A program made the position numbers. A stretch of 64,000 nt of DNA from Diadema antillarum (lineage: Eukaryota): contig NW_027271872.1 of NCBI RefSeq assembly GCF_040938485.1, forward strand, positions 868,001 to 932,000, written 5' to 3'. Below, one piece after another: positions 28,101 to 37,100 of this stretch. The first letter of the stretch is position 1. Each line of letters opens with the position of its first letter.

Positions 28101-31100
28101 TATTTCAAAAGTCTTTGTGTACAACTTGTACATCTACATTTCAGGTCAACGAGAACACACTGATGATCAAATCTAAAACACCTCAAGAGCTTGCTTTGAG
28201 CAGGCTGATGGTGTTCTACATAACAATGGTTTATGCACTCATCAAAGGTTACATATTCGTGAAGATGATCTAACAAATGCATGGATTTAAACTTTCCATC
28301 ACACTTGTTTTGAAAGGAGAATGACACCATTGCAGTTCATCTAAAATACAAGTATGGGTTCAGCAGAAAATGCTTACTGAGTATAATAATACATGTACAT
28401 GTACATGTACTTCAATTGATCACATGCCACCCACAGTGTACTTATGAACACTTGCTAGTGTAAGAGTGCTGCTGTGCAACAGGCCTGGGCCACTGAATTC
28501 CTACAGTGACATTTACGTTGCATTACTTGCAATACTTGATTCAAATACCATTGAACCTCATAAAGTGGCAATAGATACACTGTACTGAATGAGACAAAGC
28601 AAAATCTCCTGGTATGTTAAGGTTTTGTTTTGTTTTGTTTTTTCATTTTCCTAACTTTTGCACAGAATTGGTTGGTAAATTAGTTTGGAAATAAAGTGCA
28701 TAAAATCTGCTCAAACACACAAATGGTTCTGAGTGACTGAACACACTGCTCCATGACTTACTTCAAAGATACAACACCACCGCCCCTGAAACAGATCTGA
28801 AATTCACGGACTAGGATGGTGCATCTCCCCAGTGGCGATTAAAAGTGCAGTGATTTTCTGGCTTGAATGACCTTAAAAATGGAAATAAAATGGTCAACTT
28901 TGGTGGAGCATTCAGAGAGCCATGGAAGCCCACCCTGCAATCAGAGTTAGACCACCGATGGGAGCTAGTCTGTTCAGGGCTGTGCTTCCTGTCAACGCTG
29001 AAAAGTAGCAGGTACCGGAGAAGAGGAGCATTCCTACTGAGATGAGACTTCCAGTCTGATGCATTGGGAGGAAAGAATAAAAGAAGGAAATAGCAATGCT
29101 CAACAGTCCACTCTCATTATGGTACATTGCAAAAGAAAAATGATATGAGAATTACAGTGCACTGCCGTTATAACAAACACGGTTATAACGGAATTCCGCT
29201 TGCAGGGCAAGTCCAAGATAACACGCGCGTTACGTATGGGACATTCAGAGACTTTTATGACCTGAAAAATAGTGTTAATGGCTTTTGATCATATTAAACT
29301 TTATCATGGTGATTGATATCTAGGAGAAGTATAATCATGCAAAAAATGGAGAAAAATGACCTTCACAATTATATTCTAGAAGAGAAAATATGTGCCGTTA
29401 CGTATGGGACCAGAAAAATTTTGTTTTTTTAAACATTTTTTTCAACCTCAAAACTCTCTGAAAGTATTTCATTCTACAACTTGTAACTCACTGTGATGAA
29501 AGTCACAACACTCAAGATTATCACAGGTAAGTTTCGTGTCATCAGGTAAAAAGCTCTAATTACAGGTTCTAATTAAAGACAGACATGACGTGTTACGTAT
29601 GGGACAGTTACGTATGGGACAGTTTGTCCCCCATTCATTTAGTGTGTGAGGAACCATGTTTATGGGTATTTTGCATAATTATTGAAGTAAAATCAGTTGA
29701 AACTACTCAAATACTGATCCAGATTGACAAGGAAACAATATTCCCCAAATATTCACCATCCTAATCATATTCAATCATATTTTTATATTTTTATGACCAA
29801 CCTGAGTATGCATGCCCTTTGTCCCCCATTCGTTTAGTGTGTGGAGAGACATGTTTATGGGTATTTTGCAAAAATACCCATAAACAAATTTTTGCATAAT
29901 TATTGAAATGGAATCAGTTTTAAAACTACTCAAATACTGATCCAGATAGAGACAAGGGAACAATATTCCCCAAATATTTACCATCATAATCATATTTAAT
30001 CATATTCTATATTTTTATGACCAACCTGAGTATGTATGCCCTATTTTTATCAGGATAGATACGACTGAAAAATTGAATAGTTTAAAGTGTTTACTTCCAT
30101 TGATGAAGGGCAGTTTGCCATTTTGTTTCAATAAAAAACAACTTGACACAAGAAATATTAATTTTTATAAATAAGCAATACCTGCTGCGTGGAACCCCAG
30201 TGATCGAGTAGATATATGATGTCTGTCTAGCAGTCAGGTCATTGATTCGAGTCACACCTCAGTATGTATACCCATGAATTTTGTCGTGGCTATTATTGAA
30301 ACCTGAATAAGGACAATTTGTGTATCACTTGCAATAAAAAAAAAATCATTTTACTTCATATTTTTTGAAAATATTTATATCACCACCATTTCAAATTGGA
30401 TCTCAATCACTAAACTTTGAATTCCTCTAGTCTTAGGATTGTATGCTCTTTAGTAATTCATATAGGGCCTAATTGGTTTCCAATCATCTCATTAAAAGTT
30501 GAAAACTGAATCCCCATTTCTACAAAAAACTATACCATCCCTTTAATGCTGATTTTTCATTGTGTATTTTGCCATTTTCCCCTCCCCCTTTCTGAAAATT
30601 GTTCAGTCAAGTACATGTATTGTTTAAAGTGTCTATAACTCAAAAAGCAGCTACAATGTTGGGATGCTTTCTTCAGGATGATTGACCATTTGTGTACTGA
30701 GAGACCTTCCCAGCTAGCTACATGCATTCACATGCATTATGTATGAGGATGTCCCATACGTAACGCATTTGTCCAATACGTAACATTATTTCAATGCCTA
30801 ATAAAAAATATTCCTTTTACTGTTTTTTCTTTTTTCTATGGTATTTAATTTCTCTAAACAATAAATTAGAACTTTCCAAAAGGGCATTAATATAACCTTA
30901 GCAATTTCAGAATAAACCTAAAAAAATGACCTCAATTTGTTACGTATGGGACATCTCATGATAGGACACGAGCTAATTTGCATAATCATTTGCATAATCC
31001 CTAAATTTTCATACCAAGTTAAACTATTTGATGAACTTCTTATGTCCACATATTAATCAAATATCATTTGCTTTCCTTTGAATTAATATGAATTTTTATA

Positions 31101-34100: not shown

Positions 34101-37100
34101 TAGCCACGACAAAATTCATGGGTATACATACTAAGGTGTGACTCGAATCAATGACCTGACTGCTAGACAGACATCATATATCTACTCGATCACTGGGGTT
34201 CCACGCAGCAGGTATTGCTTATTTATAAAAATTAATATTTCTTGTGTCAGGTTGTTTTTTATTGAAACGAAATGGCAAACTGCCCTTCATCAATGAAAGT
34301 AAACACTTTAAACTATTCAATTTTTCAGTAGTAACTATCCTGATAAAAATAGGGCATACCCCATACTCAGGTTGGTCATGAAAATATAGAATATGATTAA
34401 ATATGATTATGATGGTAAATATTTGGGGAATATTGTTCCCTTATCAATCTGGATCAGTATTTGAGTAGTTTCAACTGATTCCATTTCAATAATTATGCAA
34501 AAATTTGTTTATGGGTATTTTGCAAAATTATTTTGCAAAATACCCATAAATGTGTCTCTCCACACACTAAACGAATGGGGGACAAAGGGCATGCATACTC
34601 AGGTTGGTCATAAAAATATAAAAATATGATTGAATATGATTAGGATGGTGAATATTTGGGGAATATTGTTTCCTTAACAATCTGGATCAGTATTTGAGTA
34701 GTTTCAACTGATTTTACTTCAATAATTGTGCAAAATACCCATAAACATGGTTCTTCACACACTAAATGAATGGGGGACAAACTGTCCCATACGTAACTGT
34801 CCCATACGTAACACGTCATGTCTGTCTTTAATTAGAACCTGTAATTAGAGCTTTTTACCTAATGACACGAAACTTACCTATGATAATCTTGAGTGTTGTG
34901 ACTTTCATCACAGTGAGTTACAAGTTGTAGAATGAAATATTTTCAGAGAGTTTTGAGGTTGAAAAAAATGTTCAAAAAAACAAAATTTTTCTGGTCCCAT
35001 ACGTAACGGCACATATTTTCTCTTCTAGAATATAATTGTGAAGGTCATTTTTCTCCATTTTTTGCATGATTATACTTCTCCTAGATATCAATCACCAGAT
35101 GATAAAGTTTGATATGATCAAAAGCCATTAACACTATTTTTCAGGTCATAAAAGTCTCTGAATGTCCCATACGTAACGCGCGTGTTATCTTGGACTTGCC
35201 CTATAATTAACTTCTGCGGCAACATATGAATCTGGATTAATGGTACATGTTGTTGATAGATCACAATCAAAGTTTGGCCCTTTATTGCACAAATCACTAG
35301 CTAAAAGAGTGTCCTGTAATAATCAGCAAGAATGGAAGACAAAATTGTGAAACACTTTAGACCTCTTCATATTCATGATATGTTGCTAGCACTAAAATGC
35401 AGTATCCAAGCAAACATTTAAAGTCAAGCTGGAGCATACTGCTTCAAAACTGCACAAGCTATATTAAAACCACTCAGATCAAATCACTCAAGTAAATTTG
35501 AATACCAAATCACCGAGTGTCGATTCTGGTTTGAACATTTTGAGCCAAAGTGCAATAAGTGCCGAACCTTGCTGTGACATATTAAAAAGTGGGTAGACTC
35601 TACTATGACAAATTCTCTTTCAACCCACATGTGCATGCTGTTACCTGTTCGTGTTATCATTACCACAGATCCACAATGTATACTTTACATAATTACAGTA
35701 TAAACAGCAATGTTGGATTGTTGTCACATCAGTTCATTGAGTTGACCGACATGTCTAATTCTGCGAAAAACTTCTCATTTATAGTAATGACATTTGCTGG
35801 GTCAGTTTTTTGAAGCGAAAAACTGACCCAGCAAATGTCATTACTATAAATGAGAACTTTTTCGCGGAATTACACATAAAATTTGACCAGAGGCCACCAC
35901 ATCCAACTCCGGCAACATCACTGCAGAATCCTCTCTTATCAACACAGTTTCTTCCCAAGCGTTGTTTGCATCTGGAACGGCCTTCCCACAGCTGTGGTTT
36001 CAGCTCCGTCTCTCGAGACCTTTCGGAGCAGTTTGAAACCACTTACACTCCGATAACCCTCATACTAAGGAGTTTTTTTACTTGCACCATAAGTTTATCT
36101 TCTTGCACCAAATGTGATGTTTGTTGCTGTAGTGACACCTATAGCACCCAGTACGACAATACTCTTTGAGAGTGATGTACTTATCGGAAGAAGAAGAATT
36201 TACTTGTCGGTCAATTCTAGGTGCTGTAGTGTCCTGTGGCTTTACATTTACCATCTCATGTTATCTTTAACATAGAATAAATAGTCTTAGAACTTTAAAA
36301 TATCTGTCATATTAATCTCCAATCCTAACATCAAAGGGTGTGCATCTACTACTAGTACTACCATGGCAGTACCATTCAATATTGTTGACATTATTTTAAT
36401 CAGTCCATCTCGCTCACGTTCATTCATTAGTTTGCATAAGTTTTTATTGTCATCAGGCCATTCTTAAAACTTTAATATGTTGCTTGGTCTGGACTGGAGC
36501 ACAAAAGGAAAGAGTAACACCTGTTAGACTTCCTTATACTGTACCCTCCCCCAATTTCGCCATACCACTCACTCTACCCTGCGCCTGTTACCGTTAATTA
36601 GCTTAGTTAGTAGGGATTTCTACGGATGCACACGCGCACACAATACATGTGAGAACAACCGTAATTGACATTACACAAAGAGCAAGGTGTGGGACCGAAG
36701 AAAGGAGGATTCGCAAATCGCACACCGTAGACTACTTACCATGGGCTCCATATGCTCCAAGAGCAACAGCTAGAGCTCCTGATATTCCAGCAACCCTCAG
36801 GAAAACACCACCTGTTTGGACAAGAGCTGGCATGTCGAAATTTCGTTTTCTCAATTTTTATAAAATTGATTTTTCCTATTTCGTTGTTACGTATACCACT
36901 ATTTTACCACAAGATGGCGCTGTTGCAACTCGACGCGACACCGATGATTGTCTGAACTAACTCCGAATGTGTCTTGCATGCATGCAGCAGGAGGCGAGGA
37001 TCGAGAATGCAACGGTGACAGCTCCGGCATTTACCGCGCGCGTACCGGCGGGCGGAGCGTTGATGTTTCCGTGGGATAGCGTCCCTAGTTTCACGGCAGC

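What the first reader, a model, noticed from the sequence alone, without database searches (positions are those of the whole stretch)
29205..35201. Two ~2.1 kb Sola2-like insertions in inverted orientation bracket TMEM256 exons 2-3
Seen: near-identical copies at 29205-31297 and 33104-35201, with different TSDs (TGCA, TATA), so they are independent insertions rather than a local inversion-duplication. The 1806-bp spacer contains exons 2 and 3 (32 + 81 = 113 nt). Established: long intronic inverted repeats promote back-splicing, exon skipping and ADAR editing. Inference: the pre-mRNA can form a ~2 kb duplex looping out both exons, giving a circRNA or frame-shifting skip. In DNA, the pair could invert the exons or move as a 6-kb composite carrying host exons, since all four ends share the same TIR. 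Two hits in one small gene also suggest local hopping.
Basis: partly seen in the sequence, partly recalled or inferred. Interest (0 to 1): 0.65.

Follow-up and report, generated by a model that had tools for sequence, protein, structure and literature searches.

The report
Inverted transposon pair flanking TMEM256 exons
Two young copies of a 2.1-kb cut-and-paste transposon lie in opposite orientation in the introns on either side of exons 2-3 of a sea-urchin TMEM256 gene; the arrangement is real but ordinary, and its supposed effects on splicing are untested.

Summary
Copies at 29205-31297 (2093 bp) and 33104-35201 (2098 bp, inverted) are 98.0% identical (2040 of 2081 aligned bases, 7 indels). 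Each has a perfect 17-bp terminal inverted repeat and its own 4-bp target-site duplication, TGCA and TATA. The longest open frame inside either copy is 74 aa, so both are non-autonomous.

The 1806-bp spacer carries exons 2 (32 nt) and 3 (81 nt) of a minus-strand, four-exon TMEM256/DUF423 gene. All four exon translations are exact substrings of the NCBI protein 'transmembrane protein 256 homolog [Diadema antillarum]', and all three introns are GT-AG. The window is sea urchin, not human.

The matched duplications and the repeat edges falling exactly on the element ends show two independent insertions. They rule out an inverted duplication, an inversion or an assembly artefact.

'Sola2-like' is unproven. 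Only the 4-bp duplication length fits. No transposase or reference terminus could be compared.

The arms could pair into about 2054 bp of RNA duplex, so circular RNA, exon skipping, editing or small RNAs are plausible. No RNA data were available here. Local hopping and composite mobility also remain untested.

This is a new member of a known kind, of low to moderate interest.

The parts
29201..29204 (.). Target-site duplication of copy A, outer side (TGCA)
   Evidence: Read directly. Identical to 31298-31301.
29205..31297 (+). Copy A of the 2.1-kb non-autonomous TIR transposon (2093 bp). It lies in intron 3 of the TMEM256 homolog, antisense to the gene in the sense that its 'left' end lies downstream in the transcript.
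   Evidence: The longest stop-to-stop frame inside is 74 aa. GC is 32.5%.
29205..29221 (+). 17-nt terminal inverted repeat, left end of A. The other three ends are 31281-31297 (-), 33104-33120 (+) and 35185-35201 (-).
   Evidence: 4 of 4 matches in the window are these ends; 0.15 expected by chance.
29229..29620 (+). Left subterminal cluster of the 14-mer GTTACGTATGGGAC in copy A, starting at 29229, 29397, 29592 and 29607. The last two are a tandem pair. The right-hand cluster is at 30751(-), 30771(-, 1 mismatch), 30939(+) and 31104(-). The mirror set in copy B spans 33283-33649 and 34784-35177. These are inferred transposase-binding sites.
   Evidence: 16 of 16 matches in the window lie inside the two copies; 0.00 expected; 15-nt unit x 2.2 at 29592-29624 and 34780-34812.
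29623..30042 (+). Internal degenerate direct duplication, units spaced about 195-233 bp and 87-93% alike. The same feature is present in copy B at 34362-34781.
   Evidence: D1-D4; 29669-29818 against 29890-30042, 89.6%.
31298..31301 (.). Target-site duplication of copy A, inner side (TGCA)
31860..31940 (-). TMEM256 exon 3 (81 nt, 27 codons, phase 0 to 0). Its donor lies 562 nt from the inner end of copy A.
   Evidence: Pfam DUF423 E = 7.3e-06, 26.6 bits against a cut-off of 25. Exact substring of P0001 at residue 43.
32975..33006 (-). TMEM256 exon 2 (32 nt). Its acceptor lies 97 nt from the inner end of copy B.
   Evidence: Its 10 whole codons are an exact substring of P0001 at residue 33. It is flanked by AG and GT.
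33100..33103 (.). Target-site duplication of copy B, inner side (TATA)
33104..35201 (-). Copy B of the same transposon (2098 bp), inverted relative to A, in intron 1.
35202..35205 (.). Target-site duplication of copy B, outer side (TATA)
36740..36833 (-). TMEM256 exon 1, coding part (94 nt, ATG at 36833-36831, ends in phase 1). Its donor lies 1538 nt from the outer end of copy B.
   Evidence: Exact substring of P0001 at residue 1. There was no Pfam hit for this 31-aa piece alone.
28912..29055 (-). TMEM256 exon 4, coding part (47 codons plus the TGA stop). Its acceptor lies 149 nt from the outer end of copy A.
   Evidence: Pfam DUF423 E = 3.7e-08, 33.9 bits. 100% identity over 100% of the query to P0001.

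Best explanation
Two copies of one family of non-autonomous cut-and-paste DNA transposon inserted separately into intron 3 (copy A) and intron 1 (copy B) of the TMEM256/DUF423 gene of a Diadema sea urchin. The element is 2.1 kb, with a 17-bp terminal inverted repeat, about eight subterminal copies of a 14-mer, and a 4-bp target-site duplication. The two copies happen to lie in opposite orientation, so they bracket exons 2 and 3.

Shown:
- The structure of the element.
- The two separate target-site duplications.
- Intact exons and GT-AG splice sites.
- Letter-for-letter agreement of every exon with the annotated 116-aa protein.
- A very large predicted free-energy gain if the arms pair in the pre-mRNA.

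Inferred:
- The copies are mostly passive intronic passengers, and the gene still makes its normal linear mRNA.
- In some transcripts the arms pair. This brings the exon-3 donor (562 nt from the duplex) close to the exon-2 acceptor (97 nt from it). A minor fraction of 113-nt exon 2-3 circles or frame-shifting exon 1-to-4 skips would follow.
- The duplex would also be a substrate for ADAR or Dicer.
- The superfamily is a 4-bp-duplication group. Sola-type is plausible but unproven.
For: Element and insertions.
- Coordinates and alignment: 98.0% identity, 2040 of 2081 aligned bases.
- The inverted repeat occurs only at the four ends.
- The 14-mer occurs 16 of 16 times inside the copies.
- The duplications TGCA/TGCA and TATA/TATA were read directly.
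- The repeat stops exactly at the element ends. The 1-nt overrun arises because both duplications start with T and end with A.
- No frame longer than 74 aa lies inside a copy.

Gene.
- DUF423 scores above the curated cut-off on exons 3 and 4 separately.
- Exon 4 is 100% identical to the NCBI D. antillarum TMEM256 homolog, 89% to the Lytechinus protein and 87% to the Strongylocentrotus protein.
- 4 of 4 exon translations are exact substrings of that protein, in order at residues 1, 33, 43 and 70. 3 of 3 introns are GT-AG.

Pairing.
- The inter-arm duplex is -3499.6 kcal/mol with 2054 pairs. Three shuffled-arm controls gave -528 to -570. The two arms folded alone sum to -1022.9.
- 21 perfect runs of 30 nt or more cover 1680 nt, the longest being 141 nt.
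- No other inverted repeat spans introns of this gene.

Literature.
- Reverse-complementary, evolutionarily young transposon pairs in flanking introns are associated with circular RNAs in mammals (PMC8516420, abstract).
- The same holds in maize (10.1101/100578, abstract).
Against: - No RNA evidence of any kind could be examined, so every downstream effect is inference.
- The annotated protein uses exons 2 and 3 in frame, so normal splicing is at least the modelled outcome. Whether that model rests on transcripts at this locus is not known to me.
- A 113-nt circle is small, and 1806 nt separate the arms.
- Independence of the two insertions does not exclude that one copy was the donor of the other.
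- Superfamily: 0 of 2 duplications fit AWWT, the target reported for Sola1 and for Dictyostelium Sola2.
- A search of the 5.8-billion-protein set with a 63-aa frame of the element found nothing. I therefore have no third copy and no direct proof that the family is multi-copy elsewhere.
Confidence: 0.85

Rival explanations
1. Local hop. One copy is the direct offspring of the other. The element was excised or copied from one intron and reinserted about 4 kb away in the same gene, with the donor site restored by repair. The two copies would then be sisters among all genomic copies.
For: They are the only two copies in 64 kb, and both lie within 6 kb inside one small gene. They share the same internal degenerate duplication. 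Preferential reinsertion near the donor is known for several cut-and-paste families (recalled, not checked here).
Against: The copies differ by 41 substitutions and 7 indels of up to 12 bp. That is as much as two random members of a young family might differ, and close to the 2.52% allelic heterozygosity reported for the species (PMC13511894, passages). With no third copy the differences cannot be polarised. Copy number in the genome is unknown, so the chance of two unrelated hits within 6 kb cannot be computed.
Confidence: 0.3
2. Selected or consequential RNA hairpin. The pair acts as a regulator of TMEM256 dosage through back-splicing or skipping, or as a gene-driven hairpin that feeds small RNAs against the transposon family.
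For: The duplex is very long and nearly perfect. It would be transcribed as part of a host gene. The back-splice sites are canonical and close to the duplex. One precedent is maize Mu killer, where read-through from a flanking gene is proposed to make a hairpin of about 4 kb that feeds siRNAs (PMC3440606, start of abstract in search listing). Another is maize transposon pairs, whose number tracks circular against linear RNA levels (10.1101/100578, abstract).
Against: There is nothing in the sequence that distinguishes function from accident, no RNA data and no conservation data. The mammalian survey concludes that most such circles are by-products of splicing (PMC8516420, abstract). No paper listed for sea urchin plus circRNA concerned this kind of locus, and none of the 12 listed for TMEM256, circRNA, sea urchin and transposon mentions TMEM256.
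Confidence: 0.12
3. Assembly artefact or local inverted duplication. A single insertion was doubled by mis-joining of the two haplotypes, by a fold-back chimeric read, or by a replication-based inverted duplication.
For: The divergence between the copies (2.0%) resembles the allelic divergence of the species (2.52%). The annotated assembly of D. antillarum is reported to retain both haplotypes (PMC13511894, passages).
Against: The repeat ends exactly at the four element termini. Each copy has its own matched 4-bp duplication, and the two differ. The 1806-bp spacer and both outer flanks are unique and non-palindromic. The spacer carries exons 2 and 3 in the order and strand the protein requires. 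A fold-back or duplication artefact would copy flanking sequence and would not create a second duplication.
Confidence: 0.03
4. Composite transposon. The 6-kb unit 29205-35201 is, or has been, mobile as one element carrying host exons.
For: The outer ends are inverted copies of the same 17-bp repeat and of the same subterminal sequence.
Against: The outer flanks are TGCA and TATA, not a matched pair. The inner flanks complete the two separate duplications. The unit therefore arose in place. Both outer ends are the same ('left') end of the element, and whether the unknown transposase accepts that is not known. The exons inside belong to the surrounding gene.
Confidence: 0.02

Closest known systems
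Non-autonomous elements of the Sola superfamily (Sola1, Sola2, Sola3)
   Same: They are cut-and-paste elements with short terminal inverted repeats (12-36 bp in the examples read) and 4-bp target-site duplications (PMC3627910, passages; PMC3845634, passages). Sola elements are reported from marine invertebrates such as bivalves (PMC10294476, passages).
   Different: The targets here, TGCA and TATA, are not the AWWT or AWDT reported for Sola1, nor the AWWT, ATAT, AAAT or ATTT reported for amoebozoan Sola2. No Sola transposase is present. No terminus of a classified Sola2 could be compared. The founding paper (Bao et al. 2009) is not held, so its group-specific termini are known to me only by recall.
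Reverse-complementary transposon pairs in introns flanking circular-RNA exons (Alu and other young elements in mammals; LINE1-like pairs in maize)
   Same: The repeats lie in inverted orientation in the two introns flanking internal exons with canonical splice sites. The pair is young, barely degraded and species-specific (PMC8516420, abstract; 10.1101/100578, abstract).
   Different: The arms here are 2.1 kb and 98% complementary, far longer than SINE pairs. They are DNA transposons in an echinoderm. No back-splice product has been seen.
Maize Mu killer (a natural inverted duplication of a transposon, transcribed from a neighbouring gene)
   Same: A long transposon-derived hairpin would be made by host-gene transcription (PMC3440606, start of abstract in search listing).
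   Different: Mu killer is one rearranged partial duplication that includes transposase sequence, and it demonstrably silences MuDR. Here there are two whole, separate non-autonomous insertions, and nothing is known about silencing.
Inversions by ectopic recombination between inverted transposon copies (Galileo in Drosophila buzzatii)
   Same: Two copies of one family lie in inverted orientation on one chromosome (PMC4168063, start of abstract in search listing).
   Different: No inversion has occurred here. Each copy keeps its matched duplication, and the exons are collinear.

Membership tests
Sola2 (Sola superfamily) | 4-bp target-site duplication | tested here: met
   TGCA/TGCA and TATA/TATA. 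The criterion is as stated in PMC3627910 (passages). It is not exclusive, since Ginger1 and Ginger2 also make 4-bp duplications.
Sola2 (Sola superfamily) | Encodes a Sola2-type DDD transposase, or is derived from an element that does | not testable with these tools
   The copies have no frame above 74 aa. The only transposase frame in the window is pogo/Tc5-type and is not flanked by this inverted repeat. Pfam has no Sola model (PMC5751038, passages). No eukaryotic genome collection was available in which to look for the autonomous partner.
Sola2 (Sola superfamily) | Termini match a classified Sola2 element. The Repbase rule is the same duplication length and positions 1-11 aligned with at most 1 mismatch. 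| not testable with these tools
   The rule was read in PMC4455052 (passages). Repbase is not available, and supplements with Sola2 end alignments are closed.
Sola2 (Sola superfamily) | Group-specific target preference | tested here: inconclusive
   0 of 2 duplications are AWWT. 1 of 2 (TATA) is AT-only, like the amoebozoan Sola2 sites. Both are palindromic and of the form TNNA. Two sites are too few, and the metazoan Sola2 preference is not in any text I could read.
Sola1 | AWWT/AWDT target, called a hallmark of Sola1 | tested here: not met
   0 of 2 (TGCA, TATA). The criterion comes from PMC3845634 (passages).
Ginger1 / Ginger2 | Termini TGTNR; targets CCGG/CCGT (Ginger1) or RTATAY (Ginger2); inverted repeats of 40-270 bp | tested here: not met
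   The termini start GGGCA. The inverted repeat is 17 bp. The targets are TGCA and G-TATA-A. The criteria come from PMC2836005 (passages).
piggyBac (and Kolobok) | TTAA target-site duplication | tested here: not met
   0 of 2 duplications are TTAA. The piggyBac criterion is from the start of the abstract of PMC7351741 in a search listing. The Kolobok criterion is recalled.
Tc1/mariner/pogo | TA target-site duplication | tested here: not met
   Shifting the boundary by 2 bp gives TA/TA for B but TG/CA for A. The criterion is recalled.
Circular-RNA locus driven by intronic complementary sequences | Reverse-complementary repeats in the introns on both sides of the circularised exons | tested here: met
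   Copy B lies in intron 1 and copy A in intron 3. 2054 predicted pairs.
Circular-RNA locus driven by intronic complementary sequences | Observed back-splice junction (exon 3 donor to exon 2 acceptor), resistant to RNase R | not testable with these tools
   No transcriptome data can be reached.
TMEM256 / DUF423 (PF04241) | Pfam DUF423 above the gathering score; orthology to named TMEM256 proteins | tested here: met
   Exon 3 scores 26.6 bits and exon 4 33.9 bits against a cut-off of 25, each scanned alone. Exon 1 alone gave no hit. 4 of 4 exon translations are exact substrings of the NCBI D. antillarum TMEM256 homolog.

The most novel reading that the evidence does not exclude
The pair is a natural, gene-driven hairpin locus. 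Because TMEM256 is transcribed, every pre-mRNA carries a 2.1-kb near-perfect double-stranded RNA of the transposon. Dicer or the piRNA machinery would cut it into small RNAs that silence the whole family, including its unknown autonomous partner, through the shared ends. This would be an animal counterpart of maize Mu killer that arose from two ordinary insertions. If the insertions are still polymorphic, the same duplex would also make TMEM256 dosage differ between individuals, through circularisation or skipping of exons 2-3.
Probability: 0.1. Interest if true: 0.55.

Novelty: new member of a known kind. Interest (0 to 1): 0.25.

Why it matters
As it stands, this is a clean, well-delimited example of a young non-autonomous DNA transposon family in a sea-urchin genome. 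29.96% of that assembly is reported as unclassified repeat. The exact ends, duplications and subterminal motif given here would let the family be named and its autonomous partner found.

The locus is also a convenient natural test case. It has a short gene, tiny internal exons and one unusually long, nearly perfect inverted pair with no competing pair. If carriers and non-carriers exist, one PCR and one RT-PCR would show how much a 2-kb intronic duplex changes splicing in an echinoderm.

Nothing here overturns current understanding.

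Tried and rejected
1. Sola2 criteria from the primary literature. Bao et al. 2009 (by DOI and PMC id) and Yuan and Wessler 2011 are not held. Five other papers mention Sola2 without giving its termini.
2. A third copy or a coding remnant. A 63-aa frame that is open in both copies (29573-29761) was searched against the 5.8-billion-protein set. No candidate was found, and only proteins of 34-111 aa were searched.
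3. Rfam at gathering thresholds over the whole window gave 0 matches.
4. The pogo/Tc5 transposase frame at 18466-20019 as the mobilising partner was rejected. None of the family's inverted repeat or 14-mer lies outside the two copies. No matching inverted repeat lies around that frame. A TA duplication does not fit copy A.
5. An alternative boundary giving a 2-bp duplication was rejected.
6. Copy A having landed inside another repeat. Only its inner flank (31305-31396) matches 25875-25967, at 82%. The outer flank does not align convincingly, so this is left open.
7. Pfam on long frames. 34 of the 48 frames of 110 aa or more were scanned. I left out 7 that run through the N stretches and 7 that overlap, in another frame or on the opposite strand, frames that were scanned.
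8. Not attempted:
- Genome contigs holds only bacteria and archaea, so no scan was made.
- As a result, other genomic copies, the second haplotype and the D. setosum orthologue stayed unchecked.
Table S3 of PMC13511894 (repeat classes) and Additional file 11 of PMC3627910 (Sola2 ends) may bear on the classification and were not seen.
- Structure and complex tools were not relevant.
9. The spliced model was handled exon by exon.

Full report
**What is there.** Two stretches are inverted copies of one sequence: 29205-31297 (copy A, 2093 bp) and 33104-35201 (copy B, 2098 bp).
- The repeat finder recovers them as six collinear inverted segments of 84-697 nt at 97-99% complementarity.
- A self-BLAST of the window gives one 2112-column hit.
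- A global alignment gives 2040 identical and 41 differing bases (25 transitions, 16 transversions), plus 7 indel events of 1-12 bp. That is 98.0% identity and a Jukes-Cantor distance of 0.020.
- Each copy starts and ends with a perfect 17-nt inverted repeat, GGGCAAGTCCAAGATAA. With three mismatches allowed, the window holds exactly four matches, the four ends. 0.15 were expected, and 0 of 100 shuffles reached four.
- Immediately outside, A is flanked by TGCA on both sides and B by TATA on both sides.
- A boundary shifted by two bases would give B a TA duplication but gives A TG on one side and CA on the other. The 4-bp reading is therefore the consistent one.

**Anatomy of the element.**
- A 14-mer, GTTACGTATGGGAC, occurs eight times per copy. 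Four lie in one orientation within 420 bp of the left end, including a tandem pair. Four, mostly in the opposite orientation, lie within 550 bp of the right end.
- All 16 matches in the window (15 exact, 1 with one mismatch) are inside the two copies, against 0.00 expected. I infer that these are transposase-binding sites.
- There is an internal degenerate direct duplication with units spaced about 195-233 bp, present in both copies.
- The longest stop-to-stop frame inside a copy is 74 aa, GC is 32.5%, and Rfam finds nothing.
- The element is thus a non-autonomous TIR transposon.

**The host gene.** On the minus strand lie four coding exons:
- exon 1, 36833-36740 (94 nt);
- exon 2, 33006-32975 (32 nt);
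- exon 3, 31940-31860 (81 nt);
- exon 4, 29055-28912 (47 codons and the stop).

All three introns are GT-AG. I handled the model exon by exon and made no joined sequence.
- Scanned alone, exon 3 and exon 4 each pass Pfam's cut-off for DUF423 (26.6 and 33.9 bits against 25). The 31-aa exon 1 alone gives no hit.
- Exon 4 searched alone found 4 proteins among 174 candidates. The best is the NCBI 'transmembrane protein 256 homolog [Diadema antillarum]', 116 aa, at 100% identity. The Lytechinus variegatus protein follows at 89% and the Strongylocentrotus purpuratus protein at 87%.
- All four exon translations are exact substrings of the Diadema protein, at residues 1, 33, 43 and 70. None is an exact substring of the other two urchin proteins.
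- Whole codons account for 115 of the 116 residues. Residue 32 falls on the codon split between exons 1 and 2.
- The window is therefore sea-urchin DNA. I do not take it for human.
- Neighbouring frames match cyclin, CFAP300 and INTS4.

**Geometry.**
- Copy B sits in intron 1 (3733 nt). It is 1538 nt below the exon-1 donor and 97 nt above the exon-2 acceptor.
- Copy A sits in intron 3 (2804 nt). It is 562 nt below the exon-3 donor and 149 nt above the exon-4 acceptor.
- The spacer is 1806 bp.

**How it arose.**
- The repeat stops exactly at the element ends, and each copy carries its own matched duplication. The two duplications differ, and the spacer and outer flanks are unique. These are therefore two separate transposition events.
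- An inverted segmental duplication, a fold-back read or a haplotype mis-join would copy flanking sequence and would not make a second duplication.
- This rival deserved attention. The D. antillarum paper reports 2.52% heterozygosity and an annotated assembly that retains both haplotypes (PMC13511894, passages), and the copies differ by 2.0%.
- The same figure suggests that the insertions are young on a population time scale and may still be polymorphic. This is inference.
- No inversion has taken place. Recombination between the arms would leave each copy with one TGCA and one TATA, and would put exons 2-3 on the other strand.
- The 6-kb unit did not arrive as a composite, because its outer flanks (TGCA, TATA) do not match. 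Its outer ends are both the 'left' end of the element.

**Superfamily.** 'Sola2-like' could not be confirmed.
- A 4-bp duplication is stated to be a Sola2 feature (PMC3627910, passages). Ginger1 and Ginger2 also make 4-bp duplications (PMC2836005, passages).
- Ginger is excluded by its TGTNR termini and long inverted repeats.
- piggyBac-type TTAA targets are excluded.
- A TA duplication is excluded by copy A.
- Sola1's hallmark AWWT target (PMC3845634, passages) is met by 0 of 2 sites. The amoebozoan Sola2 sites are also AWWT or AT-only.
- Both sites here are palindromes of the form TNNA, but two sites prove little.
- Repbase files a non-autonomous element with a superfamily when the duplication length agrees and terminal positions 1-11 align with at most one mismatch (PMC4455052, passages). 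I could not run that test.
- Pfam has no Sola model (PMC5751038, passages). The founding papers are not held.
- The only transposase frame in the window (18466-20019) is pogo/Tc5-type. It is unrelated to these ends.
- A protein-database search with a frame of the element found nothing.

**What it may do.**
- In the pre-mRNA the two arms can pair over 2054 base pairs at -3499.6 kcal/mol. Three shuffled-arm controls gave -528 to -570. The arms folded separately give -499.4 and -523.5.
- 21 uninterrupted perfect runs of 30 nt or more cover 1680 nt.
- No other inverted repeat links introns of this gene. The only other one is a local 127-bp palindrome in intron 1.
- Pairing would loop out exons 2-3 and bring the exon-3 donor near the exon-2 acceptor.
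- Abstracts I read link young reverse-complementary transposon pairs with circular RNAs in mammals, where most are judged to be by-products of splicing (PMC8516420).
- In maize, more pairs go with more circular and less linear RNA (10.1101/100578).
- That long nuclear duplexes are ADAR and Dicer substrates is recalled knowledge.
- Skipping 113 nt would shift the frame, by arithmetic.
- None of this can be observed with the tools at hand. The annotated protein uses exons 2-3 normally.
- My best estimate is a functional gene with, at most, a minor circular or skipped by-product.

**Local hopping.** These are the only two copies in 64 kb and they sit 1.8 kb apart, which is suggestive. But the family's copy number is unknown. 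The copies differ at 41 sites and 7 indels, and without a third copy their relationship cannot be tested.

**Literature on this locus.**
- A search for circRNA, sea urchin and back-splicing listed no echinoderm circular-RNA study among its 12 rows.
- A search for TMEM256, circRNA, sea urchin and transposon listed 12 papers, none of which contains TMEM256.
- The two Diadema genome papers contain no occurrence of 'Sola' in their main text. Their supplements were not seen.

**Verdict.** The locus is a new member of a known kind, an inverted pair of young transposons flanking internal exons, and is of low to moderate interest.

Noticed in passing
window 35751-35877 and 38017-38162: A 127-bp almost perfect palindrome lies in TMEM256 intron 1. 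It folds as DNA at -57.8 kcal/mol with a z-score of -16.8. A related palindromic copy (84-86% identity) lies upstream of the gene. It looks like a small fold-back or MITE family.
   Followed up: partly
window 31305-31396 and 25875-25967: A repeat of about 90 bp (82% identity) begins 7 bp inside the inner flank of copy A. The outer flank of A does not clearly continue it, so whether A landed inside an older repeat is open.
   Followed up: partly
window 18466-20019 (+): An uninterrupted 517-aa frame has pogo/Tc5-type transposase domains (DDE_1 7e-29, HTH_Tnp_Tc5, CENP-B_N). No clear terminal inverted repeats were found within 17000-21500. It may be a domesticated or recently active pogo-like gene.
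   Followed up: partly
window 9653-10075 (+): Reverse-transcriptase fragment (RVT_1, 2e-16), presumably a retroelement remnant.
   Followed up: no
window 746-1107, 13042-13418, 24226-24382, 27115-27505: A repeat family of about 390 bp whose copies are themselves partly palindromic (74-86% identity between copies). One copy lies about 1.4 kb downstream of the TMEM256 stop codon.
   Followed up: no
window 23644-23894, 39448-39689, 51794-52028, 54407-54587: A further dispersed repeat of about 250 bp (75-81% identity). One copy lies directly before the CFAP300-like exon at 39684.
   Followed up: no
window 53581-53731 and 55603-55836: Two N stretches, 385 N in all. They were left as they are, and frames crossing them were not analysed.
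   Followed up: no
window 29201-29204/31298-31301 and 33100-33103/35202-35205: Both target-site duplications are 4-bp palindromes of the form TNNA (TGCA, TATA). The chance that two random 4-mers are both palindromic is about 1 in 256. This may reflect the transposase's target preference.
   Followed up: partly
protein cluster of P0001: The identical TMEM256 protein is recorded on 2 contigs. This fits the report that the annotated assembly keeps both haplotypes. The second contig could show whether the insertions are heterozygous. It was not retrievable here.
   Followed up: no
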